Source: an uncultured Bdellovibrionales bacterium (GTDB lineage: Bacteria > Myxococcota > XYA12-FULL-58-9 > JASMKV01). From it: DNA of 64,000 nucleotides. The notes under the pieces are model-generated. The model was not told the DNA's origin. It saw only the letters and a program-made list of their open reading frames with translations, and made no database searches. A program made the translations under genes and the position numbers. Position 1 is the stretch's first letter; each line of letters begins with the position of its first letter. The stretch covers positions 5,055 to 69,054 of the forward strand of contig CAXGWX010000001.1 of assembly GCA_964013445.1 (NCBI GenBank). The letters are read 5' to 3'. Positions 21,828 to 43,380 of this stretch are shown here, in pieces.

Positions 21828-22607
21828 TCAGCTTGCTTGTTTTTTTTGCATGGAGACATGTTCTTTGTAGCGCTTAATCACTTCATCTGTCGGGCCATCC
21901 GCAACAATCTGCCCCTTATCCATAAAAATAACGCGTTCGCAGTATTCAGCAATCAACGGCAAACTATGTGAAACCATGATAACCGTAACCCCTTTGTCGA
22001 ATATTTCCTGCATCCGAACCTGGCACTTTAATTTAAATGATTCGTCACCGACAGCAAATATTTCATCCAAGAGAAGTATTTCAGGCTCTATATCCGCAGC
22101 AACAGAAAATCCTAGCCTGGTGCGCATTCCTGAAGAATAGTTTCTGATTGGAATATCAATATGCTCCTCAAGCTCAGCAAAATCCACAATTCGGTCAAAT
22201 CGCTCCTGCATATTTTGACGGGAAAGTCCCATGATTGCACCATTTAAGAAGATATTTTCACGGCCTGTTAACTCCGCATTAAAACCTGCGCCTAACTCGA
22301 TCAATGGGGTAACCATCCCGTGAACAGAAATGTTTCCTTCTCGGGCCGGAAGTACAGAGGCGATTGCTTTTAGCAGTGTGCTTTTTCCACAACCATTTGC
22401 GCCAATGAGGCCCAAATGCTCACCACGTCGAACATTTAAATCCAGGTTGCGTAAAGCCCAAAACTCTTTGAATTTAGAGCCTGAGAAAAGATTTACAACA
22501 AAATCCTTTAAAGTCACTGTCTTTTCACGATACTGGCGATAACAAATACCCAAATTACTTGCTTCTATAATATGCTCTTCGCCACTATGTTCATTCACTT
22601 TAAGCAT
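21828..22607 (-). CDS. ABC transporter ATP-binding protein for glycan export (Wzt/TagH/KpsT-like); no C-terminal carbohydrate-binding module
   Basis: Walker A GANGCGKSTLLK, LSGGM signature and Walker B LLLDE. Start taken at the ATG overlapping the wzm stop (ATGCTTAA junction). The listed ORF extends to 22628. Confidence 0.8.
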   Translation of the reverse strand: MLKVNEHSGEEHIIEASNLGICYRQYREKTVTLKDFVVNLFSGSKFKEFWALRNLDLNVRRGEHLGLIGANGCGKSTLLKAIASVLPAREGNISVHGMVTPLIELGAGFNAELTGRENIFLNGAIMGLSRQNMQERFDRIVDFAELEEHIDIPIRNYSSGMRTRLGFSVAADIEPEILLLDEIFAVGDESFKLKCQVRMQEIFDKGVTVIMVSHSLPLIAEYCERVIFMDKGQIVADGPTDEVIKRYKEHVSMQKKQAS

Positions 22608-23376
22608 AGAAAATAAAATTATCCTCATTCTTCACAAAGACAGCCGAGCCCAACACAAAAACTGCAACCGCCAAGCCAAAGCCTATAGTCCATGTACTCA
22701 GAGTTGATAATGTTCCGTAATATAAAAGATCACGGATAACCGTAACAGGATAATAAGCAGGATTAAATTTTAAAAGAAATGCCGCCTTTTCTCCAAAAAG
22801 GCTTACCGGATAAATAATTGGCGTCAAATAAAAAAGTGCTCTAAGCATTGTGGCCGTTAAATGTGTGAAGTCCCTAAAAAAGACATTTAATGTCGACATG
22901 AGCAACGCACTACCCACCGTAAAAAGATAGAGCATGGCAAAAGCCATCGGCAAAAGTATAATAGACGGCATGATGGGGTAGGAAGCGACAAGCGCAATCA
23001 ATATATAGGCTATTAATGAAAATACTAGATTAACAAAATTAGAAGTCACGATTGCTACAGGAAAAACGATTTTAGGAACATAGATTTTTTGAATTAAACT
23101 ATACTGTTTAACGATGCTGTTTTGCCCAGCATCAACAGACTGAGAAAAAAACATCCAAACAATAAGACCTGAGAGCAAAAAGAGGGCATAAAACTCCTCC
23201 TGAACGCGCGCAACACGTGAAAACACCCCCCATAACACCAACATCAGAAGAAGTGGATTAAGTAGAGTCCAAAAAAATCCAAGAAAACTACCTCGATAGC
23301 GAGTTTTCAGCGTTAAAAAAACCAAATGCGCCGTCAATTCCCGGTATCTATATAGCTCCTGCAGGGCCTTTAGCAT
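22600..23376 (-). CDS. ABC-2 type transporter permease (Wzm/TagG/KpsM-like)
   Basis: 258 aa with about 6 predicted TM helices. Directly upstream of, and overlapping, the ATPase gene. Confidence 0.7.
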   Translation of the reverse strand: MLKALQELYRYRELTAHLVFLTLKTRYRGSFLGFFWTLLNPLLLMLVLWGVFSRVARVQEEFYALFLLSGLIVWMFFSQSVDAGQNSIVKQYSLIQKIYVPKIVFPVAIVTSNFVNLVFSLIAYILIALVASYPIMPSIILLPMAFAMLYLFTVGSALLMSTLNVFFRDFTHLTATMLRALFYLTPIIYPVSLFGEKAAFLLKFNPAYYPVTVIRDLLYYGTLSTLSTWTIGFGLAVAVFVLGSAVFVKNEDNFIFYA

Positions 23377-25882: not shown

Positions 25883-28800
25883 TTAATTGAATATTCTCCT
25901 GATCTTCTTTATAACACCAGAATATCGGCTATTTGTGCCTTGGCCAGACTCCTCGAAAAATCTTTCACTCTTTGTGTTGAGATGCACACCCTTGCCCTCT
26001 AATGCTAGATTTTTAGCCTCAATAACACCATCTCGCCTGGAAATGGCTTCATTCTTCTCATTTATAACATCATCTCGCCTGGAAATGGCTTCATTCTTCT
26101 CATTTATAAGGGCTGTCTTTGCCCGCAAGGCTTCGTTCTTCTCATTTATAACACCATCTCGCCTGGAAATGGCTTCATTCTTCTCATTTATAAGGGCTGT
26201 CTTTGCCTGCAAGGCTTCGTTCTTAGCCTCAATAATCAAATCACGACGCTTCAAAGCACTGTTCTTTTCAAGGATAAGAAAGTTCTTTTCCGCCAATGCT
26301 TGATTTTTTTCAGCAATGGTCTGATCGCGCCTAAGTAATGCCATGCTTTTATCCTTCATCGATGCTGTATGCTTACCTTTATTAAGAAAAGACTGTTCCA
26401 GCTTAGATGAGCGTCCAAAAACACTATCTATTTGCATAATCAAATTTGAATATTTTGCCGCATCAAATTTTTCAATAAACTCCTCAACGACTCTTTCCAA
26501 CTGCCCCCCTAGCATATCCCTCCACTGGTTGATGTCGCATTGATAATATCTAGAAACCAACCATCGAGACATTTCTTCAATCTCTCGGGTAGTAATTGCA
26601 GATGTCAAATGCGGCCACATCTTATCTGCTATCTGTTGAGCCTCATCCTGCTTGCCCGCTAAAATATTCCACAAAACCCCTTGCCACAATCGCTTGTTCA
26701 TCCGGTATCTCATGTGTGCCGCACCAAACCCGTCTCGATACTCATCTAGGGCGTGCCCACTACAATCATCAACACTATAAACTTTATCTAAAACGAAATT
26801 AAGTTTGTTCAAGTGAGCATTATAGTCTGAGAACACTGTCCCCTCTGAGGTCTGTACATATTTAACCATCGCGTCAGGAACATTATTAAAAACAACCCCG
26901 CATCTCGCTAAACGCTGAAAAAAGTCCCAGTCTTCTCCATTAGCAATAGTGGGGTCAAATAATGCATATTTAGGAATAAATTCACTTTTCAAAAATAGTG
27001 CGTTGCAATGAAATGGGCACCCATCCATATTTAAGAATGTCGTTGTTTTACGATTTTTCGAAGTAATCCAGCTTAGATGATCCTTGTTTCCGTCGACAAT
27101 TTCGGTAGGACAATAAACCGCATCATGATCGAAATCGATAAGGTGCTGCATGCGTAAATGTATGGAACCATCACAAAACACATCATCCGCATCCAAAAAT
27201 CCTATATAATCACTCTCTGCCGCCAGCATTCCCGTATTTCTGGCATTTGATACCCCATTTTTGTCACTGTCTATTACCTTTATGCGCGAGTCATTCCCGG
27301 CTATATTATATAGTATTTCCCTGTTCTCCTCATTAGACCCATTATTAACAATAATAACATCCAGCCGTGGATAATTATCCTCAAAGACTGAATCTAATGC
27401 CTCCTGTATGGTGCTGCCTGCATTGCGGTAAGGTATAACTATCGAAATTGAAGGATAAAAATCGTTCTCATATTCTTCACCCAAATATGTATATCTTTTA
27501 CGCAGAGCCGGCAAATAAGACGGAGTCAACACATCAAACTTCTTACCGCGACTTTCCGCAAGTGTAATCCATTTATCTAAGACATCTCGGTGAGTAGTAT
27601 TGTACTCATTAAAATCAATATCAAAAAAGCTTGGATGAGCCGTTTTTATGTTGGCCATTTTAGAAGTAATTTGAGTCTTTTTATTATGCTTCCAATAATA
27701 ATCGTCTTCCTTCAATTTACGTCCGTCGCACCCAAGAATATGAATATGATTCGAAAATGTTGCGGCCAAAGGAATCATCATATTTGTTAGAATGTTTCCT
27801 GTCGTTTCGATATAAAACTGGTGGTTTAGGTTCAAATTGGTCCCTTTACCGCTTTCCAATGGTACACCAACACACCGCTCTTTTAACTCAGGAAAATAAT
27901 GAGTGAACAGCCTGTAGTAATTAAATGGAATCATAATCGGGAGGTCATATTTACCAACAACATCTAACAGTTTTTCCCTGTACTCTTTAGCGTATAAGTT
28001 ACACCCAAAATGGAAAATAGGATCGCCAAAGACCAACATCTCAGGGTTAACATATTTAACCAATTCATCATCAAAAATTACACTGTTACAAATAATTCTT
28101 AGACCATCATCGAAGTTGTAATTCGGGTATTTATCAATGGATGGCCCCGTCGCGAACAGATAGGATTTTTCCTTCTTACCTAGGCGATGTGCCAATTCCA
28201 TTAACCGAGCTTTGCACTCTTCAACATCGGCTTCCTTTTCGGGATAGTTATCAGGGTGCAACCCTGCCTTGATGTAAAAGGAACCTTCATAGCGCTCATT
28301 AATATTGTCAACTCGCCACCTCTGCTTCGCGCCAACTTCTTTCTCGAAAGCCTGTTTCCATATGGAGCTGGGATGCGTTGTTAAATCCCAATGCATTACG
28401 AGATCTGCCGAACGAAAAACCTTTACGGGAGCATTGGTATCGCTCGCATTAAGAACATGAATCTTGTCACGAATTTCTTCATAAACTCCAAGAATTGAAG
28501 GGTCCAGATAATCAGGAACCTCAAATTCAAAGCCTGAAAGGTCCAAGTTTTCGTCACAAAAGAAATAAATCTCTCTAAAATCAATAACACTTAAATACCA
28601 GCACGCTCTAGCAATATGGTCATTCAAATCGTCCAGAGTTGAGAAAAACGGGTAATAAAAGACAATGGGTTCAATAAACTCTTCGTGCCGAACAACATTG
28701 CTCTCTGTCAAATTCTTTATCTTTCGTTCGCGATTCTCTATCATGATATGCTGTTTATTTATGATTCGTTGTTGCGATGTAAAAATCTCTGATGCCAGTT

Positions 28801-29497
28801 GAAATTGTTCAGCTAAATCGGAAGATTTTAAGGCAATCAAATTTCCCCAGCCGTTATTGTCACCTAAATCACATGGGTATTTTGTTAGTGACCTCCATGT
28901 ATGTTGCATTCCATATTCGACAATAGGATACCACTCAGACACAAAAACCGTATAACCTTGTTCAATAAGATAATTAGCGATATCTCTAAACCTATAGCCC
29001 AACGGTATCGTTTTACGGTTTTCAAACTCACAAATAATATATTCTGGCTGTATTTGAGACCAATCATTCGATTTCAATACAAAATAGTCGAAACCTTCTG
29101 TATCAATTTTTAAAAAATCTATTTGATCGATATTTTTCTCATTACAAAAATCATCTAACCTAATCGTCTCAACGTTAAAATGTGATCGATGACTCGTATG
29201 AAATGAACTGAGCCCGCTGATACCGGAGCTAACATCGCTCTGATAAAACGGCAATACATCGCCCGTCTGTTCCCCTATAGCGCGTGTGTCAACATCAACA
29301 TTTACAAATTTTTCGATTGATTGTAAAAGTCTCTCACGATTTTTTGGATCAGGTTCAAGAGCAAATATTTTCCATCCATCTTCCGCAAAACGTTTCAGTG
29401 AACCCCCATAATGCGCACCAACATCAATCATGGTACGGAGTCCCGTATTGGCACCATTACTCTTTATGAATTGATAAATGAGTTCTACTTCGTTCAT
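25883..29497 (-). CDS. Multidomain glycan-assembly protein: N-terminal FkbM-family methyltransferase, central domains, GT2 glycosyltransferase, C-terminal coiled coil of 14-aa repeats and a basic amphipathic tail
   Basis: FkbM motif MIDVGAHYGGSLKRFAEDGWKIFALEPDPKNRE near the N-terminus. Start chosen at the ATG (complement of 29495-29497) preceded by an AGGTG RBS; the listed ORF extends to 29575. GT2 motif ISIVIPYRNAG...IVNNGSNEEN...LDADD at about residue 700. C-terminal repeats (KNEAISRRDGVINE / KNEALRAKTALINE) followed by GVIKKIRRIFN. Confidence 0.7.
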   Translation of the reverse strand: MNEVELIYQFIKSNGANTGLRTMIDVGAHYGGSLKRFAEDGWKIFALEPDPKNRERLLQSIEKFVNVDVDTRAIGEQTGDVLPFYQSDVSSGISGLSSFHTSHRSHFNVETIRLDDFCNEKNIDQIDFLKIDTEGFDYFVLKSNDWSQIQPEYIICEFENRKTIPLGYRFRDIANYLIEQGYTVFVSEWYPIVEYGMQHTWRSLTKYPCDLGDNNGWGNLIALKSSDLAEQFQLASEIFTSQQRIINKQHIMIENRERKIKNLTESNVVRHEEFIEPIVFYYPFFSTLDDLNDHIARACWYLSVIDFREIYFFCDENLDLSGFEFEVPDYLDPSILGVYEEIRDKIHVLNASDTNAPVKVFRSADLVMHWDLTTHPSSIWKQAFEKEVGAKQRWRVDNINERYEGSFYIKAGLHPDNYPEKEADVEECKARLMELAHRLGKKEKSYLFATGPSIDKYPNYNFDDGLRIICNSVIFDDELVKYVNPEMLVFGDPIFHFGCNLYAKEYREKLLDVVGKYDLPIMIPFNYYRLFTHYFPELKERCVGVPLESGKGTNLNLNHQFYIETTGNILTNMMIPLAATFSNHIHILGCDGRKLKEDDYYWKHNKKTQITSKMANIKTAHPSFFDIDFNEYNTTHRDVLDKWITLAESRGKKFDVLTPSYLPALRKRYTYLGEEYENDFYPSISIVIPYRNAGSTIQEALDSVFEDNYPRLDVIIVNNGSNEENREILYNIAGNDSRIKVIDSDKNGVSNARNTGMLAAESDYIGFLDADDVFCDGSIHLRMQHLIDFDHDAVYCPTEIVDGNKDHLSWITSKNRKTTTFLNMDGCPFHCNALFLKSEFIPKYALFDPTIANGEDWDFFQRLARCGVVFNNVPDAMVKYVQTSEGTVFSDYNAHLNKLNFVLDKVYSVDDCSGHALDEYRDGFGAAHMRYRMNKRLWQGVLWNILAGKQDEAQQIADKMWPHLTSAITTREIEEMSRWLVSRYYQCDINQWRDMLGGQLERVVEEFIEKFDAAKYSNLIMQIDSVFGRSSKLEQSFLNKGKHTASMKDKSMALLRRDQTIAEKNQALAEKNFLILEKNSALKRRDLIIEAKNEALQAKTALINEKNEAISRRDGVINEKNEALRAKTALINEKNEAISRRDDVINEKNEAISRRDGVIEAKNLALEGKGVHLNTKSERFFEESGQGTNSRYSGVIKKIRRIFN
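25990..26330 (-). repeat. In-frame 42-bp tandem repeats (about 7-8 copies, the central ones near-identical) encoding the coiled-coil region of the 25883..29497 protein
   Basis: Near-perfect copies of ttctcatttataacaccatctcgcctggaaatggcttcattc and a sister unit alternate between about 26020 and 26220. More diverged copies lie on both sides. Confidence 0.85.
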
Positions 29498-30031: not shown

Positions 30032-30697
30032 TCAACTTATACCGTAGCTTTTTCTAATCTCTTCAAAATTAGTGTACCAGGTCATTTCTGGGTAAGTCTT
30101 AACCAAAATGCTTGCTTCATCTTCAGCCAAAGCAACAAAAGGCACCTGGTGTTCGGCCGCAGCGTTATAATCACTTAAGGCATCGCCAAAAAAGAAACAT
30201 TTGGTTGTATTATAACCATAATCATCAACCAGACGGGCGACATGCTCCCCTTTTGAGGTCGGCGCACCCAAAACTTCTTTAAAATACTTACTCCAACCAC
30301 GTCTCGCGACAATAAGCTCTATCTCTTCTTGAGGCGTTGCGGAAATCACAAATGCTGGAACACTGGCCTTTTGGGTATATTCTTTTAAAAAGTTTTCTGC
30401 ACCTGGAATCTCATCTGCTGCAATAACTTTCTCAACAACCAATTGCGCAAACCCTTCGCAAAGCTCTTCCATTTTTTCTGCCGATAACGGTTCTTTTAAA
30501 AACTCCTGATAATAGACCTTAAATTTATCTCGTCTTGTCATGCCACCATTAGCCAGATGGTGCTCAACAACTTTTTGCTCAACGTCTGAACCATGGTGCG
30601 CAAAAAGCGCGGCAAATGCTTCGGTCTTCACGTTAACCGAATCCGCCAAGACGCCATCGAAATCAAAAAATAATGCATCAATATCTTCTGGGTTCAT
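30032..30697 (-). CDS. HAD-superfamily hydrolase (phosphatase, subfamily IA-like)
   Basis: DxDG motif I (FFDFDGVLADS) right after the proposed start. The start ATG overlaps the stop of the upstream cyclase gene (ATGA junction). The listed ORF extends to 30721. Confidence 0.7.
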   Translation of the reverse strand: MNPEDIDALFFDFDGVLADSVNVKTEAFAALFAHHGSDVEQKVVEHHLANGGMTRRDKFKVYYQEFLKEPLSAEKMEELCEGFAQLVVEKVIAADEIPGAENFLKEYTQKASVPAFVISATPQEEIELIVARRGWSKYFKEVLGAPTSKGEHVARLVDDYGYNTTKCFFFGDALSDYNAAAEHQVPFVALAEDEASILVKTYPEMTWYTNFEEIRKSYGIS

Positions 30698-31350
30698 GCT
30701 GTCCATCCGATCATTGTACAAGGAGCGCCATCACCCTTATGTATGCGCAAGGGTAGAGCAATAACCTTTGTAAGTGGTTTATCTAGATTTTCCAAAGAGA
30801 GGTCTTCGTAGATGAGAATATCTCGACCCAAGTATTCCTTATGCGCTGTTCTGCCTATTTCCCTGTGTTGGTAACTGGATAAAGAAATAAAATCGAAGCC
30901 AATGGCGCGTAACCCTGGAAATCTGGATTTCAAATCCTGAGCTGAATCCGGGTGCATGCCTGGATTTGACTGCCAATATGTATCTTCACCGCGTTTCGCT
31001 TCAAATCCGGTTCGAATAAGAATAAAATCAACTTCCTGCGGAGCGTCAACAAGAACCTGAGAAAGCTTTTCAAATTCAATCAGCTCACCTTCTTCTGCCT
31101 CATAATCGATATAAAGCGGTGATTCATATATCCACTCAGTAGGAGCATAATCGGTTATCGTCTTACCATCGGCCAAAAAGTGATATGGCGCATCAACATG
31201 ACTGCCGCTATGGTTGGGGAAATCAAGATGGGTATTGTTACTCGTGTCCCCCCGAGCAATGGAGCGAACATCCTTGAGTTCAATATTCTTTGCACCGCCA
31301 TAAAGGGGTGTTGTTTTACCAATCGGATGGGATAACCAAAAACAATCCAT
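30694..31350 (-). CDS. Cyclase-family protein (kynurenine formamidase-like metal-dependent hydrolase fold)
   Basis: HxGxHxDxPxH motif (HSGSHVDAPYHF). 218 aa. Confidence 0.7.
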   Translation of the reverse strand: MDCFWLSHPIGKTTPLYGGAKNIELKDVRSIARGDTSNNTHLDFPNHSGSHVDAPYHFLADGKTITDYAPTEWIYESPLYIDYEAEEGELIEFEKLSQVLVDAPQEVDFILIRTGFEAKRGEDTYWQSNPGMHPDSAQDLKSRFPGLRAIGFDFISLSSYQHREIGRTAHKEYLGRDILIYEDLSLENLDKPLTKVIALPLRIHKGDGAPCTMIGWTA

Positions 31351-31353
31351 TGC

Positions 31354-32253
31354 TTATAAGGCTCTCTTTGCCGTCGACTCAGAATCAACAGCAATTTCTT
31401 CAACAACATCAAGAACTCCCTGCCCAATATCAACAAAGGTTCGAGGTTCAATTTTTACCGCTTGTCTGGGTGTATAGCGATAGGGGGTCAAGAGATAATG
31501 GTCACTTTCTCCGCCTGGTTCTTCGAATTCAAATTCAATATCTTTACCAACAATTTCCTTGATGAAAGCAAAAAGCTCTTTGACCTTTAAAACTTGAGCT
31601 CCTGTTAATGTAAGACATTTATTCTCAAAATCCTTCTGAAGAGCCTCTACACTTAATCGAGAAGCATCCTTAACGTGAATATACTCCCGGCGCTCTTCAC
31701 CTGTCCCATTGCAAACTATTCTATTATTCCTCACCGCTTGCAGTATGTAATTCTTGAAACCATTCCAGTCCTGTGCTCGAGGTCCATAAAGAGAACCGTA
31801 ACGCAGTATCGTATAATTCAAACCATACTTTTCATGATACGCTTCAATGAGTGTCTCAACCGATTGCTTACTCGCTCGGTAAAATGAACCTCTTTGGCTA
31901 TATACATAGACTGTCGAGGCAAAAACAAATCGCTCAACGCCCTGCTCAACACAAGCGGACAATACGATTGAGCTTCCCATAACGTTACTCTCAATAGTCA
32001 GCAGCGGATTATTAGATGCCTCCCCAATATCCGCAACACCGGCCATGTGATACACATAGTCTATCCCTTTGCATGCTGAGAGAATGGCACTTTTGTCGAG
32101 TAAATTGCCTTGAATAAATTTTTGATTGGAGCTTATCCATTTAGATTCCACATGGTCAAAAATAGTAACGTCCATGCCTGCGGCACTTAATGCATCAGCA
32201 ACATGACTTCCTAAAAAGCCTGAACCACCAATAACAAGAGCTTTCTTTTGCAT
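31354..32253 (-). CDS. NAD-dependent epimerase/dehydratase (SDR family)
   Basis: KKALVIGGSGFLGSHVADAL Rossmann motif and YRASK catalytic YxxxK. Confidence 0.75.
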   Translation of the reverse strand: MQKKALVIGGSGFLGSHVADALSAAGMDVTIFDHVESKWISSNQKFIQGNLLDKSAILSACKGIDYVYHMAGVADIGEASNNPLLTIESNVMGSSIVLSACVEQGVERFVFASTVYVYSQRGSFYRASKQSVETLIEAYHEKYGLNYTILRYGSLYGPRAQDWNGFKNYILQAVRNNRIVCNGTGEERREYIHVKDASRLSVEALQKDFENKCLTLTGAQVLKVKELFAFIKEIVGKDIEFEFEEPGGESDHYLLTPYRYTPRQAVKIEPRTFVDIGQGVLDVVEEIAVDSESTAKRAL

Positions 32254-32262
32254 ATAAATCCC

Positions 32263-33198
32263 CTATGACAATGCTGAGAGCAGATTCTCTACCGCTTCTC
32301 GCTCCATTTGAATGCGTGCTTCTCGCGCATAGGAGCCAATATGGGGAGTAAGAATAACATTATCAAAATCTCTTAATGGCCCCTCATAAGGTTCTTGCTC
32401 AAAAACATCCAGAGCAGCGCCTGCAATTTCGTTGTTAGCTAATACATCAGAAAGGTCAGCTTCATTAATAACGTCCCCCCGGGCAACATTGATAATTAGG
32501 GCGCTTGGTTTCATGAGTGCGAGCAGGTTCTTACTCACAAGGTGTCGCGTGTCTTTACCCGACGCAAGATGTAAGCTCACGATATCAGAATCTCTAAACA
32601 GTTCCTCAATCGTATCTGTTTTTCTAATGTTCAAAGCAGTCATCTCGTCCCTATCAACATAGGGATCAAATGCGCAAACCTCTGTTCCAAAACACTGCAT
32701 TTTTTCAGCGAGTTTTCGACCAATTCGTCCACAACCAACCACACCTAAAGTCTTACCCTCAACCAGACCTCCAAGATGTTTCTTCCAGCTTCCGGTTCGT
32801 GTCTGTCGATCGTGCAAGGCTATTTGCCGGGCTAAAGAAAAAATAAGTGCTATAGAAAGCTCAACGACTGCCGGTGCCACTGCATCAGGTGTTCGAAAAA
32901 CCTCCATGCCGTATTCCTTCACCGCATCATGATCAACATTATCCCAACCAACCCCGACACGAGAGATAACACGCAGGTGCTCCTGAGCCTTTTCCAATAC
33001 TCGACGAGTTATAGGCTCAACACCTGCAATCAATCCGCATGGCTGGTATTCCGTAAGAAGGGAATCCAATTCCTCTTCCGAAAGACGTCTCGAAAAAGGA
33101 TTGGTAATGACTGTATACCCTTTGGATTCAAGCTCGCTCAGCGGGCCTCTATCTGCTGTGCCAAAGGATGATGTCGTCGTTAGTATTTTATTATCCAT
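32263..33198 (-). CDS. D-isomer-specific 2-hydroxyacid dehydrogenase (PGDH-like)
   Basis: NAD-binding GVVGCGRIGRKLAEK. Catalytic R/E/H pattern (VARG...E...HIGS). Start placed at MDNKIL, which overlaps the HpcH stop. The listed ORF extends to 33228. Confidence 0.7.
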   Translation of the reverse strand: MDNKILTTTSSFGTADRGPLSELESKGYTVITNPFSRRLSEEELDSLLTEYQPCGLIAGVEPITRRVLEKAQEHLRVISRVGVGWDNVDHDAVKEYGMEVFRTPDAVAPAVVELSIALIFSLARQIALHDRQTRTGSWKKHLGGLVEGKTLGVVGCGRIGRKLAEKMQCFGTEVCAFDPYVDRDEMTALNIRKTDTIEELFRDSDIVSLHLASGKDTRHLVSKNLLALMKPSALIINVARGDVINEADLSDVLANNEIAGAALDVFEQEPYEGPLRDFDNVILTPHIGSYAREARIQMEREAVENLLSALS

Positions 33199-33199
33199 T

Positions 33200-33979
33200 T
33201 TAATGGCCTTTCTTGGCGATAGTGACACCCTCTCGGCAGATTGAGTCTAATATTCTTATATCAAGACTGTAGGCAAGAAACTTATAGCCTTCTTCCTGAC
33301 AGCGAACGATTTCTTTAGGATCTGGCTCGATAATATGAATTCCCCCTGGCTTTGGACAATTAGCGACCGCACTATTAATTTTCTCCATGGCCTCAAGCAT
33401 TTTAGGGTTATTAAAGCCTCCTGGAGCCCCTAAAGAGCCAGATAAGTCATAGGGTCCAACAATAAATCCGTCTACCCCGTCATGGTCGAGAATTGAATCT
33501 ATATTATTGACCGCATCAATATGCTCAATTTGTGGAATAAGAATACTCTCATTTTGAAGCCGCTCTTTGTAGCCTTCAAAGTCAGCGCCATAAGCCTGAG
33601 CACGTGCAAGCCCCACTCCCCTCATCCCCATTGTAGGATAATGCATCGCTCGATAGGCACGCTCTACATCCTCAACTGAATTCACCATAGGAACAATAAT
33701 TCCCTTAGCACCCGCATCCATAACCCGCTTAATCTGCACTGCATCGTTTGAAGAAAGACGTACTAGCGGCGTAACACCACTCAGATCAATAATGCGAATG
33801 AGCTCCTCAGCTTCACGTATTGTGATAACACTATGTTCCAGATCAACACATAGCCAATCAAAACCAGATTTAGCCATAATTTCTGCTATTGCTGGGTGCC
33901 CCAAGGTTATCCATGACCCCAAGGTGGCTTCTCCAGCCTTTAGCTTTTCTTTTAAACCCATTTCGATTCTGCCCTTCAT
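33200..33979 (-). CDS. HpcH/HpaI-family class II (pyruvate) aldolase
   Basis: 259 aa with the family-typical GSWITLGHPAIAEIMA N-terminus and VRLSSNDAVQIKRVMDAGAKGIIVPMV core. Confidence 0.75.
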   Translation of the reverse strand: MKGRIEMGLKEKLKAGEATLGSWITLGHPAIAEIMAKSGFDWLCVDLEHSVITIREAEELIRIIDLSGVTPLVRLSSNDAVQIKRVMDAGAKGIIVPMVNSVEDVERAYRAMHYPTMGMRGVGLARAQAYGADFEGYKERLQNESILIPQIEHIDAVNNIDSILDHDGVDGFIVGPYDLSGSLGAPGGFNNPKMLEAMEKINSAVANCPKPGGIHIIEPDPKEIVRCQEEGYKFLAYSLDIRILDSICREGVTIAKKGH

Positions 33980-34089
33980 AAACTGGGAAATAGTTCAAAT
34001 CGGAACCTAGGACTACATTGATTCAGCATAAGAATCAACAACAAGGGCTGCTTATTCCTGCTCAATAAACCAGTTTAAGAGCTTGTTAT

Positions 34090-34773
34090 TTATGCGTTAT
34101 TTTCAGCGATGGTTTGTGCTAAATCCCAATCATCTGGACCATCTATATCCAAGGATTCCAGTGTATTCATCACATAGAGATATGGTCTTTTACCAATCCG
34201 AGCATTTGTTTGTAGAAAACTATCCTTAGAAAATAAATAAAGATTGGAGTTTTCCTCGTACCACGGTTCTAAATCCTGAGTGCGTAATAGATTTTCAGGA
34301 TCGTGATTAACTGGGCTTCCATCTTTACGGTAAAAACGAGTTTGAACTTTATTTACAGTAAAGAGTGAATCCGATTCTTCATTGGCCATTTTTGCGATGA
34401 ATATTTCTATACATTCTTCAATTGTCCCAATTTCAATAAAAGGGTTGGTTGTGTGGGTCATAAGATAGGTTTTTGAATTTATGTTATTAACATCATTTTC
34501 AAGTACCGCATTCATACTCACCATATCCCCACAAATGGACTCTGGACGGTCTCTCAAAATTACCTTTGAATTATGAATTTCTTCGAACTCTTCAAGTATT
34601 CCTCTCGCATCCGTGTTAATGACAACCTTATCAATACTGTCAACATGGAGTAACTTCTCCAATACCCAAAGAAAAAGAGGTTTACCGGCAAGCTCGCGAA
34701 AATTCTTATTGGGTACACGTTCACTATTTGCCTTCATTGGTAAAAGCGCTACGACGTTATACTCTTCACTCAT
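34090..34773 (-). CDS. Acylneuraminate/ulosonic-acid cytidylyltransferase family (CMP-sugar-acid synthetase)
   Basis: VVALLPMKANSERVPNKNFRELAGKPL N-terminal CTP-binding pattern of the CMP-NeuAc/CMP-Kdo synthetase family. 227 aa. Confidence 0.75.
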   Translation of the reverse strand: MSEEYNVVALLPMKANSERVPNKNFRELAGKPLFLWVLEKLLHVDSIDKVVINTDARGILEEFEEIHNSKVILRDRPESICGDMVSMNAVLENDVNNINSKTYLMTHTTNPFIEIGTIEECIEIFIAKMANEESDSLFTVNKVQTRFYRKDGSPVNHDPENLLRTQDLEPWYEENSNLYLFSKDSFLQTNARIGKRPYLYVMNTLESLDIDGPDDWDLAQTIAENNA

Positions 34774-35763
34774 TTATTCATCCTTGTTCAACCCCAAAAT
34801 TAATCGCTTGTGGAGCTTTATATTATACATAGCGATAAAGGTCACTAAGCAAAGACCAATGGTATACCCCATCCACGCTATCTTGTTTTCTAATATGAAA
34901 ATCATTGGATTCATCAATAAAATAACAGATATGACATCCTGTTCACGAATTCTTCTTTTCCTTAAAAACAAAAAGACAAAACCAAGCAGTAAAGAAAGAA
35001 AAATATTTAATGAAGTATTGGAAAAGCTCAGATTAACCAAGAGAAGTAATAGCGCTGTTGATATACAAAGCAGGGTTGGCATTAACCCATAGAGATACCA
35101 TTTTAAATAAAACGGGAGCCATTTAAATAATTGGAATTTAGTTTCACCGTGCTGCCTTTCCTCCCACTGGCTTGGGACTTCACTAACGGAAAAACCAAGG
35201 CGAAATGCCTTTACTGTAAGTTCAAGACCGATCTCAAAACCATGAAGACTTTCAACTTTTATGTGTTCAAAGAGTTCACGTTTATAGGCACGGAAATTGT
35301 TCGTCACATCACGAGTCGAAATTCCTGTAAGAAGATTAAGTGTAAGCCCTGCGAGCATCGACAACTTTTCCTTTAAAAATGGGGCTCCAGTAATACTGCC
35401 ACCAGGTATGTATCTCGAGGCACTCACAACCCAAGCACCCTTTTGAATCTTCTCAACCATCTTGGGTATAATTTCAGGAGGGTCAGAGAGATCCGCCATC
35501 GTTGTCACAATAATATCACCACGTGCATCTTCGATGCCGGATTTAATGGCTTTTGCGGCCCCACGACCGTAGGCATTTTTAACCAAACGCATTGTTGGGT
35601 ATTTATCCTTCACTTTTTCAAGTATAGGTAAGGTCGTATCTTCATCAAAATCATAACAAACAAGTATCTCGTGCTCATCGTTTTTAAGCACGCCATACAA
35701 CCTTTGTAGGCATTCTAAAATCGATTCTGATTCATTATAGACGGGTAAGACAATCGTGAGCAT
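34774..35763 (-). CDS. GT2 polyprenyl-phosphate glycosyltransferase (GtrB/DPM1-like) with C-terminal transmembrane helices
   Basis: LTIVLPVYNESESI...DEDTT...ADLSD GT-A motifs followed by two strongly hydrophobic C-terminal segments. Confidence 0.7.
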   Translation of the reverse strand: MLTIVLPVYNESESILECLQRLYGVLKNDEHEILVCYDFDEDTTLPILEKVKDKYPTMRLVKNAYGRGAAKAIKSGIEDARGDIIVTTMADLSDPPEIIPKMVEKIQKGAWVVSASRYIPGGSITGAPFLKEKLSMLAGLTLNLLTGISTRDVTNNFRAYKRELFEHIKVESLHGFEIGLELTVKAFRLGFSVSEVPSQWEERQHGETKFQLFKWLPFYLKWYLYGLMPTLLCISTALLLLLVNLSFSNTSLNIFLSLLLGFVFLFLRKRRIREQDVISVILLMNPMIFILENKIAWMGYTIGLCLVTFIAMYNIKLHKRLILGLNKDE

Positions 35764-37723: not shown

Positions 37724-38830
37724 TTATTCGTTTGAAGTAAGTGAGGCGGTTTCATCTTCCAGATTGCCCGCACCCCACATTTTATCACGGCTTGTGCGTG
37801 CTTCTTCTTTATTGGCGCGTTTCTCAGCTTGCAGCTCAACAAGGTGATGGTGTGTCGTAAAATAAGGAAGACTCTTACCGACAATATCCTGAACCGAATC
37901 AAATCCATGATCGTCCATAAACTTAGATAAGCCTTCCATAAGTGGAGTTACCATTTTCATGCCATAAATCATCGCACCGGTACAAACCTGAACCGTATTT
38001 GCACCAACCAGAAGAAACTCAATAGCATCTTCGGCTGTCACAACCCCGCCAATCCCAGAAATATCAAATTTTGGTATTTCTACGGCAATTTCCTTAACCG
38101 CACGCAGCCCAATAGGCTTTACCGCCGGTGCGGAATAACCACCTGGGGTGGAGTGTCCCTCAACCGTTGGAAGCGGCCTAAGGGTCTTAAGATCGATTCC
38201 AATCACCGCCAACACCGTATTGATGGCACTGACTCCATGGGCACCGCCAGCCTGAGCCCCTTTTGCAGGCTTTACGATATCCGTAATGTTGGGTGTCATC
38301 TTTGACCAAACCGGCACATCGACGGCTTCAACAACCCAGCGCGTGACTTCTTCAACCTGGGCAGGATCTTGCCCCATAGCGGCCCCCATGCCCGTTTCAG
38401 GGTGTCCATGTGGGCAGGAGAAGTTAAGTTCCAAAGCATCACATCCGGCGGCCACACAGCGTTGTGCAACCTCTTGCCAGCGTTCTTTTTCATAAGACTC
38501 CATGATCGAGCCAATCAGAATCTTGTCCGGATACTCATTTTTTACGATTTTAAATTCTTCTTCCCATTGCTCAAAAGGAAGATCGGAAATCAGCTCTATA
38601 TTTTGAAATCCATAGACTTCACCGCCTTTAGCACGGAGTTTTCCGTAACGAGGCATAACATTAACAACTTCCGTGTCCGTTAAGCTTGTTGTCTTAGCAA
38701 CAACACCACCCCAGCCGGCCTTAAAGGCCTTACAAATAACGCGAGCATTTGTTCCAGGAGGTCCACTGCCAATAACAAATGGATTATCAAATTTAAGGCC
38801 TGAAACTTCGATGCTTAGATCTCTTGCCAT
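37724..38830 (-). CDS. Dihydroorotate/dihydropyrimidine dehydrogenase-family flavoprotein (PreA-like), no Fe-S partner domain
   Basis: FDNPFVIGSGPP and NFSCPHG catalytic-cysteine motif typical of the DHOD/DPD TIM-barrel family. The C-terminal about 45 aa are low complexity. Confidence 0.65.
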   Translation of the reverse strand: MARDLSIEVSGLKFDNPFVIGSGPPGTNARVICKAFKAGWGGVVAKTTSLTDTEVVNVMPRYGKLRAKGGEVYGFQNIELISDLPFEQWEEEFKIVKNEYPDKILIGSIMESYEKERWQEVAQRCVAAGCDALELNFSCPHGHPETGMGAAMGQDPAQVEEVTRWVVEAVDVPVWSKMTPNITDIVKPAKGAQAGGAHGVSAINTVLAVIGIDLKTLRPLPTVEGHSTPGGYSAPAVKPIGLRAVKEIAVEIPKFDISGIGGVVTAEDAIEFLLVGANTVQVCTGAMIYGMKMVTPLMEGLSKFMDDHGFDSVQDIVGKSLPYFTTHHHLVELQAEKRANKEEARTSRDKMWGAGNLEDETASLTSNE

Positions 38831-38898: not shown

Positions 38899-40005
38899 TT
38901 AGCCTATTTTAAGGGCACCCTGCTCTATTCTAAAATGGTGATTTTCCTCAGGCACCTGCAATTCCACGCTTCCTGTTGTGGAAATCCAAACCTGACAACC
39001 AAGCTCTTCTATGCACTTAAACAGATACTCTGTCCGTTGCTTGTCCAATTCACTGGAAACATCGTCCAGAAGAAGCAAGGGAGCACAACCAAGTTTTTCC
39101 TCAATCACTTTAACTTCAGCCAGTTTCAGCGCCAAAACAAGAGATCTTTGCTGACCTTGCGAGGCAAATGATTTAGCTGCACGCCCATCCAGGGAAAAGG
39201 ACAAATCACTTCTTTGCGGTCCAATGGTTGTTAATCCGCGGGCTCGATCTAAATTAAAACTCTCGCCTAAAGCTTTCCTGTATGAATTTTGAAAAGATTT
39301 TGCATCATGGATAGGAACACCCGGATCTAATAAAATTTCCAAATCAGTCTCAATAATACCAAGTTCTCGCAGAAAATATTCCACATGAGGTTTTAAGTAC
39401 TCTAATGAATCTTTTCGATACTGATGTATTCTTGCACCATATTTAATCAGCTGTTCATCAAAAGCCCTAAGTAAATTTTTATCGAGTCTGGTATCCTGTT
39501 TCTGATGCTTACGAAGAATACTATTTCTTTCTTTTAAGGAACGACGAAAAGAACGAAAACTATCAACCGAGTCAGGAAAAAAACTCAATGTACACCTATC
39601 TAAAAATCTTCTTCTTCCTTCAGGGCTCCCTTTAACCAACATGAGGTCATCTGGAAAGAAAGCCACAATATTCATCAGGCTTAAAAGCTTAGTTAGGCTT
39701 CGAAGCGGCTTATCATCCACACGGATGGTTCGCTTTGCATTGCTTAATTTGATCTCTATTTGATGACGAACATTTTGTTTAATAATCTGACAACGTACAA
39801 CACCAGCCTGCTCATTATCCCTTATGAGATCCGCAATAAGACCCTTTCTAAAAGATTGCCCTGTCGATGCCAGATAGAGAGCCTCTAAAAGATTTGTTTT
39901 TCCTTGAGCATTATTGCCGGAAATAAGAATCCAGGATTTATCAACATCGACCTGTAGAGATTCTATATTGCGGAAATTTTTTAAATAGAGTTGCTCAATA
40001 AACAT
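38899..40005 (-). CDS. recF: DNA replication and repair protein RecF
   Basis: Walker A GNNAQGKTNLLEA. Conserved dnaA-dnaN-recF order. Start placed at the ATG giving MFIEQLYLKNFRN; the listed ORF begins at a TTG at 40026 that overlaps the dnaN stop. Confidence 0.85.
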   Translation of the reverse strand: MFIEQLYLKNFRNIESLQVDVDKSWILISGNNAQGKTNLLEALYLASTGQSFRKGLIADLIRDNEQAGVVRCQIIKQNVRHQIEIKLSNAKRTIRVDDKPLRSLTKLLSLMNIVAFFPDDLMLVKGSPEGRRRFLDRCTLSFFPDSVDSFRSFRRSLKERNSILRKHQKQDTRLDKNLLRAFDEQLIKYGARIHQYRKDSLEYLKPHVEYFLRELGIIETDLEILLDPGVPIHDAKSFQNSYRKALGESFNLDRARGLTTIGPQRSDLSFSLDGRAAKSFASQGQQRSLVLALKLAEVKVIEEKLGCAPLLLLDDVSSELDKQRTEYLFKCIEELGCQVWISTTGSVELQVPEENHHFRIEQGALKIG

Positions 40006-40022
40006 AAGGCTTAAAAAGCCAA

Positions 40023-41135: not shown

Positions 41136-41230
41136 TGCGTATCCTTAGCTAATGAAAAAGTAGCTAGGGGTTTGCGCTGCTTTTGTCAACCCTTAGATAA
41201 GCCGGTTGAAATTGGCTCAAGGCTCTCTAT

Positions 41231-41270
41231 TTATTTAATATATATATATAAAATAATAATAATAATAATG
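41231..41270. promoter_or_regulatory. AT-rich tract (candidate DNA unwinding element) in the dnaN-dnaA intergenic region
   Basis: ttatttaatatatatatataaaataataataataataatg is nearly pure A/T, and is immediately followed by DnaA-box-like ATATCCACA sites at 41274-41282 and 41334-41342 (reverse orientation) and TTATCCAAA at 41414-41422. Confidence 0.5.
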
Positions 41271-42941: not shown

Positions 42942-43000
42942 GGACTATTCACAATACCTTAAAAAATATTTTATCAAATCAAAACAGATACTTATATCTG

Positions 43001-43352: not shown

Positions 43353-43380
43353 TTGACAAAGTGGCTCCCACAGGTAAAAA
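43353..43380 (+). promoter_or_regulatory. Putative sigma70-type promoter for rpmH-rnpA-yidD-yidC
   Basis: TTGACA at 43353-43358 and TAAAAA at 43375-43380 with 16-bp spacing, about 55 nt upstream of the rpmH ATG. Confidence 0.3.

What the first reader, a model, noticed from the sequence alone, without database searches (positions are those of the whole stretch)
30032..34773. Six-gene cassette suggesting a CMP-activated sugar acid made by a pyruvate (HpcH) aldolase instead of a PEP-dependent synthase
Seen in sequence: contiguous co-directional genes for a CMP-NeuAc/Kdo-type cytidylyltransferase (34090-34773), an HpcH/HpaI class II pyruvate aldolase, a D-2-hydroxyacid dehydrogenase, an SDR epimerase/dehydratase, a cyclase-family metal hydrolase and a HAD phosphatase. 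Several junctions are ATGA/overlap couplings (33198/33200, 30694/30697). Established knowledge: known ulosonic and nonulosonic acids (Kdo, NeuAc, Pse, Leg) are made by PEP-condensing synthases (KdsA/NeuB family). HpcH-family enzymes catalyse reversible pyruvate-aldehyde aldol reactions. Inference: the cassette plausibly builds a 3-deoxy-2-keto sugar acid from pyruvate plus an aldose and then activates it as the CMP-sugar. The 2-hydroxyacid dehydrogenase and HAD phosphatase may tailor or dephosphorylate it, for example as a terminal Kdo-like cap for the ABC-exported glycan. I do not recognise this enzyme combination as a described pathway.
Basis: partly seen in the sequence, partly recalled or inferred. 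Interest (0 to 1): 0.75.

Follow-up and report, generated by a model that had tools for sequence, protein, structure and literature searches.

The report
Aldolase-based route to a CMP-sugar acid
A marine bacterium's surface-sugar locus carries a compact, widely recurring gene set that most likely builds a Kdo/sialic-acid-like acidic sugar with a pyruvate aldolase rather than the usual PEP-dependent synthase, activates it with CMP and adds it to an exported glycan; no such route was found in the literature searched.

Summary
The six genes are there, co-directional and tightly packed, and every family call holds. No NeuB or KdsA homologue lies anywhere in the 64-kb window.

The aldolase belongs to a tight orthologue group, 57-69% identical across phyla, that sits in glycan loci. 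In 50 loci anchored on it:
- 45 carry a CTP_transf_3 cytidylyltransferase, 38 of them within two genes of the aldolase.
- 37 carry a 2-hydroxyacid dehydrogenase.
- About 29 carry an orthologue of the extended SDR (46-61% identical).
- 20 carry the HAD and 5 the cyclase-family hydrolase.
- Three loci carry all six functions.

The usual partner cytidylyltransferase is KdsB-type. The window instead uses a NeuA/PseF-like subfamily that elsewhere travels as GT2-CT-2HADH-SDR without any aldolase.

Best reading: aldose(-phosphate) plus pyruvate gives a 2-ulosonic acid. It is then dephosphorylated, CMP-activated, tailored by the dehydrogenases and transferred. The identity of the sugar and the dehydrogenase roles are inferred, not shown. 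No description was found in the literature searched.

The parts
33200..33979 (-). HpcH/HpaI-family class II (metal-dependent) pyruvate aldolase. Likely start is 33961 (253 aa). Proposed ulosonic-acid synthase.
   Evidence: Pfam PF03328, E 1e-31. Closest solved structures are HpaI, YfaU and GarL. The catalytic and metal residues His43, Arg68, Glu146 and Asp172 align with YfaU His49, Arg74, Glu153 and Asp179 and are invariant in 14 orthologues. The orthologue group is 57-69% identical across phyla and lies next to a CT in glycan loci.
34090..34773 (-). CTP_transf_3 cytidylyltransferase of the NeuA/PseF-like subfamily ('CTn'). Proposed CMP-ulosonate synthetase.
   Evidence: Pfam PF02348, E 8e-23. 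The best NCBIfam hit is PseF at 81 bits, below the cut-off of 206. The best PDB sequence hits are NeuA and PseF CMP-sugar synthetases. It is 56-63% identical to the 80 best of 520 related loci found among GTDB species representatives. The P-loop Lys/Ser/Lys and the C-terminal DID metal motif are invariant.
32263..33198 (-). D-isomer 2-hydroxyacid dehydrogenase. It is PGDH-like in fold but is not a 3-PG dehydrogenase.
   Evidence: Pfam PF02826, E 5e-57. The best PDB hit is 1wwk, E 6e-58. The catalytic Arg, Glu and His are kept, but the PGDH 'VRS' motif is replaced by 'AGVEP'. It is 40-48% identical to the 2HADHs of HpcH loci and 28-38% identical to those linked to CTn.
31354..32253 (-). Extended SDR, GalE-like epimerase/reductase type. 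Probably acts on a nucleotide-linked sugar.
   Evidence: Pfam PF01370, E 4e-46. The best PDB hits are UDP-hexose 4-epimerases. GxxGxxG and YxxxK are present and there is no dehydratase TDE motif (read). Orthologues 46-61% identical occur in 29 HpcH loci.
30694..31350 (-). Cyclase-family (PF04199) metal-dependent hydrolase. An accessory member of the cassette.
   Evidence: Pfam E 2e-20. Distant PDB hits are kynurenine formamidase and isatin hydrolase. Present in only 5-6 of about 50 HpcH loci, at 31-50% identity.
30032..30697 (-). HAD-IA phosphatase. Proposed ulosonate-phosphate phosphatase, or alternatively a pyrophosphatase.
   Evidence: Pfam PF00702 and PF13419. The DxDG motif is visible in the sequence. 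The only PDB hit is the BT2127 pyrophosphatase, E 8e-5. Orthologues 34-51% identical occur in 20-22 HpcH loci.
34774..35763 (-). GT2 of the ArnC/GtrB/Dpm1 type with three C-terminal hydrophobic segments. Abuts the CT gene. Role in this pathway is uncertain.
   Evidence: Pfam PF00535. NCBIfam hits to ArnC, PgfS and dolichyl-P hexose transferase are all below cut-off. Hydropathy scan. It is not homologous to the soluble GT2 that normally precedes CTn.
25883..29497 (-). 1204-aa multidomain protein: FkbM methyltransferase, a Maf/sialyltransferase-fold domain (about aa 400-680, DNA about 27460-28300), GT2, and a repetitive coiled coil. Candidate transferase and terminator using the CMP-sugar.
21828..23376 (-). 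Wzt (ABC ATPase) and Wzm (ABC-2 permease), the exporter of the glycan.
   Evidence: Pfam PF00005 and PF01061.

Best explanation
The cassette is a biosynthetic module for a CMP-activated 2-ulosonic (alpha-keto) sugar acid. A class II pyruvate aldolase does the carbon-carbon bond-forming step that KdsA or NeuB does with PEP in the known pathways.

Proposed order (inferred):
1. HpcH condenses pyruvate with an aldose, probably a phosphorylated one, to give a 3-deoxy-2-ulosonate(-phosphate). Hydroxypyruvate as donor is an alternative.
2. The HAD-IA phosphatase removes the phosphate. This step, together with CMP activation, pulls the reversible aldol reaction forward.
3. The cytidylyltransferase makes the CMP-sugar.
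4. The 2-hydroxyacid dehydrogenase and the GalE-like SDR, which follow a CT gene in this order in two unrelated CT families, oxidise and re-reduce the sugar. This would be epimerisation or keto-reduction tailoring, analogous to ElaA/ElaC acting on CMP-legionaminic acid.
5. The Maf/sialyltransferase-fold domain of the neighbouring FkbM-GT2-coiled-coil protein transfers the sugar to the glycan exported by Wzm/Wzt, plausibly as a non-reducing-end cap.

Shown here: gene families, conserved catalytic residues, co-conservation of the genes, absence of NeuB and KdsA from the window, and the fold of the transferase domain.

Inferred: every reaction, the identity and chain length of the sugar, and the order of steps.
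For: The HpcH orthologue group (57-69% identical, more than 560 metagenome stretches) lies in glycan loci. Of 50 loci, 45 carry a CT (44 of the same CT family), and 38 have it within two genes of the aldolase. That partner CT passes the NCBIfam KdsB-subfamily cut-offs: 314 bits against 255, and 273 against 193. This points to a Kdo-like 2-ulosonic acid.

Orthologues of the other window genes travel with HpcH: 2HADH at 40-48% identity in 37-40 loci, SDR at 46-61% in 29, HAD at 34-51% in 20-22. L095, L160 and L166 carry all six functions in other gene orders. L096 has HpcH directly followed by a window-type CT that is 46% identical.

No NeuB or KdsA lies in the 64-kb window.

An adjacent Maf/sialyltransferase-fold domain was found, and it is genetically linked to a CTn module and to Wzm/Wzt in Oceanicoccus.

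Precedent for CT + oxidase + SDR acting on a CMP-ulosonic acid is ElaABC (PMC13656337).

From established knowledge rather than a tool result: NANS/NANP/CMAS and KdsA/KdsC/KdsB show the synthase-phosphatase-CT logic, and NanA and Kdo aldolase show that pyruvate aldolases make and break these same acids.
Against: - No biochemical data exist.
- The window's CT is only about 21% identical to the KdsB-type partner. It belongs to a subfamily that in 83 of 84 loci has no HpcH within 10 kb, and NeuB and KdsA each appear in only 1 of those 84. Its normal substrate is therefore made some other way.
- 2HADH enzymes normally act on free 2-hydroxy or 2-keto acids, which a CMP-linked ketoside lacks. The Ela-like role is therefore weakly grounded. 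The enzyme could instead supply the donor (hydroxypyruvate) or act on the free acid.
- HAD and cyclase are absent from most HpcH loci.
- The only solved relative of the HAD is a pyrophosphatase, and the match is very weak.
- A housekeeping KdsA almost certainly exists elsewhere in this Gram-negative genome and could feed the CT. This could not be checked.
- 14 of 50 HpcH loci also carry NeuB.
Confidence: 0.55

Rival explanations
1. The CT activates a sugar acid that the aldolase does not make. Candidates are housekeeping Kdo, or a 2-keto-aldonate made by oxidation (aldose to lactone, to aldonate, to 2-keto-aldonate via SDR, hydrolase and 2HADH). The CT-2HADH-SDR trio would then be the real pathway, as in hundreds of other genomes. 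HpcH and HAD would do something peripheral, such as making a substituent or a second sugar.
For: The window-type CT is followed directly by a 2HADH in 78 of 84 loci, usually with a classical SDR and a soluble GT2. HpcH, NeuB and KdsA each appear in only 1 of the 84. Lactonase-type genes (SGL in 19 loci, MBL Lactamase_B_3 in 14) often head that module. The window's cyclase-family hydrolase could play the lactonase role.
Against: The window's 2HADH, SDR and HAD are orthologues of the HpcH-linked set (40-61% identical), not of the CTn-linked set (28-38% identical, with a different SDR class). The window has only one CT, while the HpcH group is tied to a CT in 45 of 50 loci. L096 repeats the HpcH-CTn adjacency.
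Confidence: 0.2
2. This is the same module, but the donor is hydroxypyruvate made by the 2HADH from D-glycerate. The product would then be a 3-hydroxy (non-deoxy) 2-ulosonic acid, Ko-like, rather than a 3-deoxy acid.
For: A 2HADH accompanies HpcH in 37-40 of about 50 loci, although pyruvate needs no dedicated supply. Some HpcH-family enzymes use hydroxypyruvate; the SwHKA structures 6r62 and 7nuj are among the hits, and their donor preference is from established knowledge. This reading would reconcile use of a CT subfamily whose usual module looks like a 2-keto-aldonate route.
Against: The 2HADH lacks the PGDH phosphate-binding motif, and nothing marks it as a glycerate dehydrogenase. The aldolase is closer to HpaI and YfaU (about 137 bits) than to the hydroxypyruvate aldolase (102 bits). 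The usual partner CT is KdsB-like, and KdsB acts on a 3-deoxy sugar.
Confidence: 0.15
3. HpcH extends an already nucleotide-linked sugar. A dehydrogenase oxidises a CMP- or NDP-sugar to an aldehyde or ketone, the aldolase adds a pyruvate unit, and the 2HADH reduces the new 2-keto acid. The result would be a branched or higher-carbon acidic sugar.
For: The SDR is of the nucleotide-sugar type. The 2HADH would then have a natural 2-keto-acid substrate. The locus makes dTDP-4-keto-6-deoxyhexose and uronic acids (RmlA, RmlB and two UDP-sugar dehydrogenases).
Against: It gives no role to the HAD. CTP_transf_3 enzymes activate 2-ulosonic acids or phosphonates, not hexose-1-phosphates (established knowledge). 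No precedent exists for HpcH acting on nucleotide sugars.
Confidence: 0.07
4. The aldolase is an ordinary catabolic HpaI/GarL/RhmA-type enzyme that sits in the locus by chance.
For: Source annotations call it 2,4-dihydroxyhept-2-ene-1,7-dioate aldolase or RhmA. All NCBIfam hits to those equivalogs are far below cut-off.
Against: It scores 170 bits against a cut-off of 369 for HpaI. Its orthologues are embedded in glycan loci next to a CT in 45 of 50 cases, never with hpa, gar or rhm catabolic genes in the loci inspected.
Confidence: 0.03

Closest known systems
Kdo pathway (KdsD-KdsA-KdsC-KdsB) and nonulosonic acid pathways (NeuB/PseI/LegI with NeuA/PseF/LegF; vertebrate NANS-NANP-CMAS)
   Same: The end logic is the same: a three-carbon keto-acid unit is condensed with an aldose(-phosphate) to give a 2-ulosonic acid. 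An optional HAD phosphatase follows, then a CTP_transf_3 cytidylyltransferase, then transfer by a CMP-sugar glycosyltransferase.
   Different: No KdsA (DAHP_synth_1) or NeuB is present in the window. A PF03328 class II pyruvate aldolase occupies the synthase position. The donor would be pyruvate or hydroxypyruvate instead of PEP, so the condensation is reversible. The HAD is type IA, not the KdsC type.
HpaI / YfaU(RhmA) / GarL catabolic class II aldolases
   Same: Same Pfam family and fold, and the same catalytic His, Arg, Glu and Asp.
   Different: Only about 135-140 bits to them, and far below every NCBIfam equivalog cut-off. It forms a separate, tightly conserved orthologue group located in glycan-biosynthesis loci next to a cytidylyltransferase.
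ElaABC (CMP-legionaminic acid C8 epimerisation, A. baumannii KL49; PMC13656337)
   Same: A cytidylyltransferase gene sits with two NAD(P)-dependent oxidoreductases that are proposed to oxidise and then stereoselectively re-reduce the CMP-sugar. True Ela-like GFO+SDR pairs sit next to the KdsB-like CT in the other variant of the HpcH module.
   Different: In the window the oxidoreductases are a 2-hydroxyacid dehydrogenase and an extended SDR, not a Gfo/Idh/MocA enzyme and a classical SDR. The window has no legionaminic acid genes.
Chain-terminating multidomain enzymes of ABC-transporter-dependent O-antigens (WbdD; WbbB with its beta-Kdo transferase)
   Same: A large cytoplasmic protein combines a terminal-modification module (methyltransferase, CMP-sugar-type transferase), a polymerising GT2 and a coiled coil. 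It lies beside wzm/wzt.
   Different: The candidate ulosonate transferase has a Maf/GT42/GT29-like fold, not GT99. The window's Wzt is short and lacks the cap-binding Wzt_C domain seen in the Oceanicoccus locus. Terminator function is inferred only.
Maf (motility-associated factor) flagellin nonulosonic-acid transferases / MptE-like (PF01973) proteins
   Different: No Pfam hit at E up to 1, and hhalign probability is only 16%. Only 12 sequence relatives were found in 5.8 billion proteins. It is embedded in a polysaccharide enzyme rather than a flagellin glycosylation system.

Membership tests
HpcH/HpaI class II aldolase family (PF03328) | Significant match to the family profile over its full length | tested here: met
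   110 bits against a cut-off of 25; profile positions 3-214 of 221.
HpcH/HpaI class II aldolase family (PF03328) | Catalytic Arg, the His that acts through water, and the two acidic metal ligands | tested here: met
   His43, Arg68, Glu146 and Asp172 align with YfaU His49, Arg74, Glu153 and Asp179. They are invariant in 14 orthologues.
HpaI / GarL / RhmA functional equivalogs (catabolic aldolases) | Score above the NCBIfam equivalog cut-off, and a catabolic gene context | tested here: not met
   170 against 369 (HpaI), 154 against 393-407 (GarL), 136 against 441 (RhmA). The context is glycan biosynthesis.
CMP-ulosonate synthetases (CTP_transf_3, PF02348) | Family profile match plus the N-terminal P-loop basic residues and the C-terminal DxD metal site | tested here: met
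   82 bits against a cut-off of 22.6. K14, S17, K23 and D209-I-D211 are invariant. PDB relatives are NeuA, PseF and CMAS.
PseF / KdsB / NeuA specific equivalogs | Score above the curated cut-off for a defined substrate | tested here: not met
   PseF 81 against 206; KdsB models 41 bits or less against 155-281. Substrate is therefore undefined. By contrast, the CT that normally partners HpcH passes the KdsB subfamily cut-offs.
PEP-dependent ulosonate synthases (KdsA / NeuB) | Presence of a DAHP_synth_1 or NeuB homologue in the locus | tested here: not met
   tblastn best E above 1 for both. No such Pfam domain in any ORF of 150 aa or more in the window. The rest of the genome could not be searched.
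D-3-phosphoglycerate dehydrogenase (SerA) | Score above the equivalog cut-off, and the Arg-Ser/Thr motif that binds the substrate phosphate | tested here: not met
   244 bits against 454. 'VRS'/'VRT' of the PGDHs 1wwk and 9whb aligns with 'AGV'. The catalytic Arg, Glu and His of the wider 2HADH family are present.
ElaABC-type CMP-sugar epimerisation module | CT + Gfo/Idh/MocA oxidase + classical SDR reductase acting on a CMP-nonulosonic acid | tested here: not met
   The window has no GFO_IDH_MocA gene; it has a 2HADH and an extended SDR instead. The resemblance is functional analogy only.
Maf / sialyltransferase-like (GT-A variant, MptE-like) CMP-sugar transferases | Fold similarity to solved Maf, GT42 and GT29 enzymes | tested here: met
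Maf / sialyltransferase-like CMP-sugar transferases | Sequence-profile membership (PF01973) and donor specificity for a CMP-sugar | tested here: inconclusive
   No Pfam hit. hhalign against MptE-like neighbours gives probability 16% and E 0.0015, aligning the GPS and GxDG motifs. Donor specificity cannot be tested with these tools.
HAD phosphatase superfamily | DxDG nucleophile motif and family profile | tested here: met
   PF00702 at 57 bits. 'FDFDGVLADS' lies at the N-terminus. The specific substrate was not determined; all equivalog scores are far below cut-off.

The most novel reading that the evidence does not exclude
A widespread, so far undescribed branch of bacterial glycobiology. In it, an HpcH-type class II aldolase is the dedicated synthase for one or more unknown CMP-activated ulosonic acids. 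These could have unusual chain length, or a 3-hydroxy group if hydroxypyruvate is the donor. They would be made without PEP, tailored by a CT-linked 2-hydroxyacid dehydrogenase/SDR pair, and installed by a new sequence family of sialyltransferase-fold enzymes as caps on ABC-exported glycans.
Probability: 0.45. Interest if true: 0.8.

Novelty: new variant of a known kind. Interest (0 to 1): 0.66.

Why it matters
Every characterised route to Kdo, sialic, pseudaminic and legionaminic acids uses a PEP-dependent KdsA or NeuB synthase. Genome mining for acidic 'sialic-acid-like' surface sugars relies on those markers.

If this module works as inferred, a whole class of CMP-sugar acids is invisible to such searches. 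More than 560 related stretches were found in a single metagenome scan, and related loci occur in Chlamydiota, Desulfobacterota, SUP05 and Myxococcota MAGs.

It would also supply:
- A biosynthetic, stereodefining class II pyruvate aldolase of interest for biocatalysis.
- A new CMP-sugar transferase sequence family.
- A testable example of how a reversible aldol reaction is made unidirectional by dephosphorylation and nucleotide activation.

Tried and rejected
- Literature. Nine full-text searches combined HpcH or HpaI with cytidylyltransferase, KdsB, nonulosonic, capsule or O-antigen terms, plus 'aldolase citrate lyase'. None found a paper describing this pairing. The only useful hit was the ElaABC paper.
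- 2HADH as SerA feeding hydroxypyruvate through the HAD. Weakened, because the PGDH phosphate motif is absent.
- Upstream GT2 (34774-35763) as the counterpart of the soluble GT2 that precedes this CT subfamily elsewhere. Rejected: no similarity (E 0.64). It is ArnC/GtrB-like with C-terminal membrane segments.
- Pfam and NCBIfam on the unannotated parts of the 1204-aa and 730-aa proteins. Nothing useful was found. A PDB sequence search found only the GT2. Only the structure prediction revealed the sialyltransferase-like fold.
- Promoter and terminator scan of the operon. Counts do not differ from shuffled sequence.
- My ORF-based clustering under-calls genes in high-GC loci (CT recovered in 63 of 81). 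For that reason the counts for the CTn set are quoted from tblastn.
- Whether the rest of this genome, or the genomes carrying the CTn module, encode KdsA, NeuB or HpcH elsewhere could not be determined.

Full report
OBSERVATION

The region 30032-34773 holds six co-directional minus-strand ORFs.
- HAD-IA hydrolase, 30032-30697.
- Cyclase-family (PF04199) metal hydrolase, 30694-31350.
- Extended SDR of the GalE type, 31354-32253.
- D-2-hydroxyacid dehydrogenase, 32263-33198.
- HpcH/HpaI class II aldolase, 33200-33961/33979.
- CTP_transf_3 cytidylyltransferase, 34090-34773.

None reaches the curated cut-off of any functionally defined NCBIfam equivalog. The families are certain; the substrates are not.

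The packing is tight. Cyclase/HAD is a true ATGA overlap. The other gaps are 3 and 9 nt. The CT start abuts the stop of an upstream GT2. The CT-HpcH gap of about 110 nt holds no consensus terminator.

CONTEXT

The window is a chromosomal origin region. It carries parAB, gidAB, trmE, then the glycan locus, then recF, dnaN, dnaA and yidC. There is a GC-skew switch near 40-42 kb and there are DnaA-box clusters. It comes from a marine (TARA) metagenome bacterium that NCBI labels a Myxococcales MAG.

The cassette ends a same-strand run that begins with a PreA-like gene, RmlB and two GT2 genes. It lies in a roughly 23-kb glycan locus that also contains:
- RmlA.
- Two UDP-sugar dehydrogenases.
- An SDR and a DegT aminotransferase.
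- Wzm/Wzt.
- Several GT2 proteins.

No NeuB or KdsA homologue exists anywhere in the 64 kb. The best tblastn E-value is above 1. Pfam found neither domain in any ORF of 150 aa or more.

IS THE ALDOLASE A REAL ALDOLASE?

It aligns end to end with HpaI, YfaU and GarL. His43, Arg68, Glu146 and Asp172 match the catalytic and metal residues of YfaU. They are invariant among 14 orthologues.

It is far below the equivalog cut-offs for HpaI, GarL and RhmA. It belongs to a separate, strongly conserved orthologue group, 57-69% identical in MAGs labelled Chlamydiae, Desulfarculaceae, Syntrophobacterales and Ca. Pseudothioglobus.

CO-CONSERVATION ANCHORED ON THE ALDOLASE

I clustered the ORFs of 50 HpcH-anchored loci of at least 8 kb.

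| Feature | Loci of 50 | Note |
|---|---|---|
| Any CTP_transf_3 cytidylyltransferase | 45 | 44 belong to one CT family |
| CT within two genes of HpcH | 38 | |
| 2-Hacid_dh | 37 | |
| Extended SDR orthologue | about 29 | 46-61% identical |
| HAD | 20 | 34-51% identical |
| Cyclase-family protein | 5 | 31-50% identical |
| NeuB | 14 | |

The partner CT passes the NCBIfam KdsB-subfamily cut-offs: 314 bits against 255, and 273 against 193.

Two main layouts recur.
- Variant A: HpcH, CT, (methyltransferase), GFO/IDH/MocA, SIS, classical SDR, DHQ-synthase-like, 2HADH.
- Variant B: HpcH, CT, 2HADH, extended SDR, (cyclase), HAD.

The window has the variant B content. L095, L160 and L166 carry all six functions in other gene orders. 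Flanking genes are glycan genes: LIC12162-family transferase (TIGR04331, 575 bits), GT-B-like unknowns, flippases and ABC exporters, radical-SAM and methyltransferases. They are never aromatic or sugar-acid catabolic genes.

The catabolic-aldolase reading is effectively excluded.

CO-CONSERVATION ANCHORED ON THE WINDOW'S CYTIDYLYLTRANSFERASE

The window's CT is not the KdsB-like partner. The two are about 21% identical over 70 residues. It is NeuA/PseF-like and belongs to its own very widespread orthologue group. That group comprises 6996 proteins at E of 1e-10 or better. A scan of GTDB species representatives confirmed 520 related stretches. The 80 best loci kept are 56-63% identical to the window's CT.

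In 84 loci of that group:
- The CT is immediately followed by a 2HADH in 78.
- HpcH appears next to it once (L027). NeuB is within 10 kb once, and KdsA once.

The normal module reads [MptE-like, SGL lactonase or MBL-fold protein], soluble GT2, CT, 2HADH, classical SDR.

So the window is a hybrid. It has a variant-B HpcH module whose KdsB-type CT has been replaced by a CT from another module.
- Its 2HADH, SDR and HAD are orthologues of the HpcH-linked set, not the CTn-linked set.
- L096 shows the same HpcH-then-CTn adjacency with a CT 46% identical to the window's.

This is the main reason my confidence is not higher. The normal substrate of this CT subfamily is evidently made without an aldolase.

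THE DEHYDROGENASES, HAD AND CYCLASE

The 2HADH keeps the family's catalytic Arg, Glu and His. It replaces the Arg-Ser/Thr motif of the phosphoglycerate dehydrogenases 1wwk and 9whb with Gly-Val (AGVEP). It is therefore not SerA. All CT-linked 2HADH subgroups lack that motif too.

The SDR resembles UDP-hexose 4-epimerases. It has no dehydratase motif, which suggests a nucleotide-linked substrate.

In two unrelated CT families the gene order is CT, then 2HADH, then an SDR. The only experimentally supported precedent I found for CT plus two oxidoreductases is ElaABC. There a Gfo/Idh/MocA enzyme is proposed to oxidise, and an SDR to re-reduce, C8 of CMP-legionaminic acid (PMC13656337). GFO+SDR pairs of that kind sit in variant A.

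I therefore favour a redox tailoring or epimerisation role. Two alternatives remain open: supply of a hydroxypyruvate donor, or oxidation of an aldonate to a 2-keto-aldonate.

The HAD-IA protein has only a very weak solved relative, the BT2127 pyrophosphatase (E 8e-5). A sugar-acid-phosphate phosphatase role, like NANP or KdsC, is inferred from pathway logic. The cyclase-family hydrolase is an infrequent accessory with no assignable role.

A TRANSFERASE FOR THE PRODUCT

The 1204-aa protein just downstream (25883-29497) was annotated only as FkbM methyltransferase plus GT2. Its central 300 residues have only 12 relatives in 5.8 billion proteins.

In Oceanicoccus a stand-alone homologue lies between wzm/wzt (with the cap-binding Wzt_C domain) and a GT2-CTn-2HADH-SDR-MptE module. 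A 1730-aa GT2-MptE-FkbM protein sits nearby.

The window protein ends in a coiled coil encoded by 42/84-bp tandem repeats. This recalls the molecular-ruler terminators WbdD and WbbB.

MECHANISM PROPOSED

1. HpcH condenses pyruvate (or hydroxypyruvate) with an aldose(-phosphate).
2. The HAD dephosphorylates the product.
3. The CT forms the CMP-ulosonate.
4. 2HADH and SDR tailor the sugar.
5. The Maf-like domain transfers it, and Wzm/Wzt exports the glycan.

All steps are inferred. The irreversible phosphatase and CTP-consuming steps explain how a reversible aldolase could replace a PEP-driven synthase.

The sugar is undefined. The KdsB-type partner elsewhere argues for a Kdo-like 3-deoxy acid. 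The NeuA-like CT here, whose usual module looks like a route to a 2-keto-aldonate, leaves chain length and the C3 substituent open.

NOVELTY AND VERDICT

Nine full-text searches found no description of an HpcH-cytidylyltransferase pathway. The library is incomplete, so this is absence of evidence only.

I rate the finding a new variant of a known kind: a CMP-ulosonic acid pathway with a non-homologous, pyruvate-dependent synthase.
- Confidence in the general mechanism: about 0.55.
- Interest: 0.66.

Noticed in passing
window 25883-29497 (-), especially about 27400-28300 and 26022-26245: The 1204-aa FkbM-GT2 protein hides a Maf/sialyltransferase-fold domain with no Pfam hit and only 12 sequence relatives in 5.8 billion proteins. 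It also has a C-terminal coiled coil encoded by 42/84-bp tandem DNA repeats. The architecture recalls WbdD/WbbB-type chain terminators.
   Followed up: partly
loci L001-L084, e.g. L001 6193-10375, L002 6321-11654, L170 11519-15586: The window's CT subfamily forms its own very widespread module: [SGL lactonase, MBL-fold protein or MptE-like], GT2, CT, 2-Hacid_dh, classical SDR. NeuB, KdsA and an aldolase each appear near it in only 1 of 84 loci. It sometimes lies beside flagellar genes (fliW, csrA in L001). One possibility is an oxidation route: aldose to lactone, to aldonate, to 2-keto-aldonate, to CMP-sugar. No description was found in the literature searched.
   Followed up: partly
loci L087, L098, L100, L105, L112, L114, L120, L147, L156, L168: A second layout of the HpcH module (variant A) is HpcH, KdsB-like CT, methyltransferase, GFO/IDH/MocA, SIS (GmhA-like), classical SDR, DHQ-synthase-like, 2-Hacid_dh. 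It often sits with LIC12162-family transferases. The SIS and DHQS-like genes hint at a heptose-phosphate-derived or carbocyclic sugar. Function unknown.
   Followed up: no
window 38899-44193: Chromosomal origin region. recF, dnaN and dnaA lie on the minus strand and the GC skew changes sign near 40-42 kb. DnaA-box clusters lie at 41274-41445 (dnaN-dnaA spacer) and 43001-43032 (upstream of dnaA). There are 40 near-consensus boxes in the window against 13.9 expected.
   Followed up: partly
window 34774-35763 (-): An ArnC/GtrB/Dpm1-like polyprenyl-phosphate GT2 with three C-terminal hydrophobic segments abuts the CT gene. No GT-C partner for periplasmic transfer was recognised in the window, so its role is open.
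   Followed up: partly
window 37724-38830 (-): A PreA-like gene (NAD-dependent dihydropyrimidine dehydrogenase subunit; 413 bits against a cut-off of 335) lies between recF and rmlB, at the head of the same-strand run that contains the glycan genes. This is an odd neighbour for a glycan operon.
   Followed up: no
window 12693-13592 (+) and 13614-15077 (+): A eukaryotic-type (alpha) carbonic anhydrase is followed by a 487-aa ORF with no Pfam match and no predicted membrane segments. They lie just upstream of the glycan locus.
   Followed up: no
window 23503-25695 (+): A 730-aa protein has an N-terminal GT2 and a C-terminal 440-aa region with only faint GT-B-like hits (Glycos_transf_1, Glyphos_transf; E 0.01-0.03). 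The unknown 425- and 585-aa proteins that flank HpcH modules elsewhere show similarly faint hits (Epimerase_2, DUF6716).
   Followed up: no
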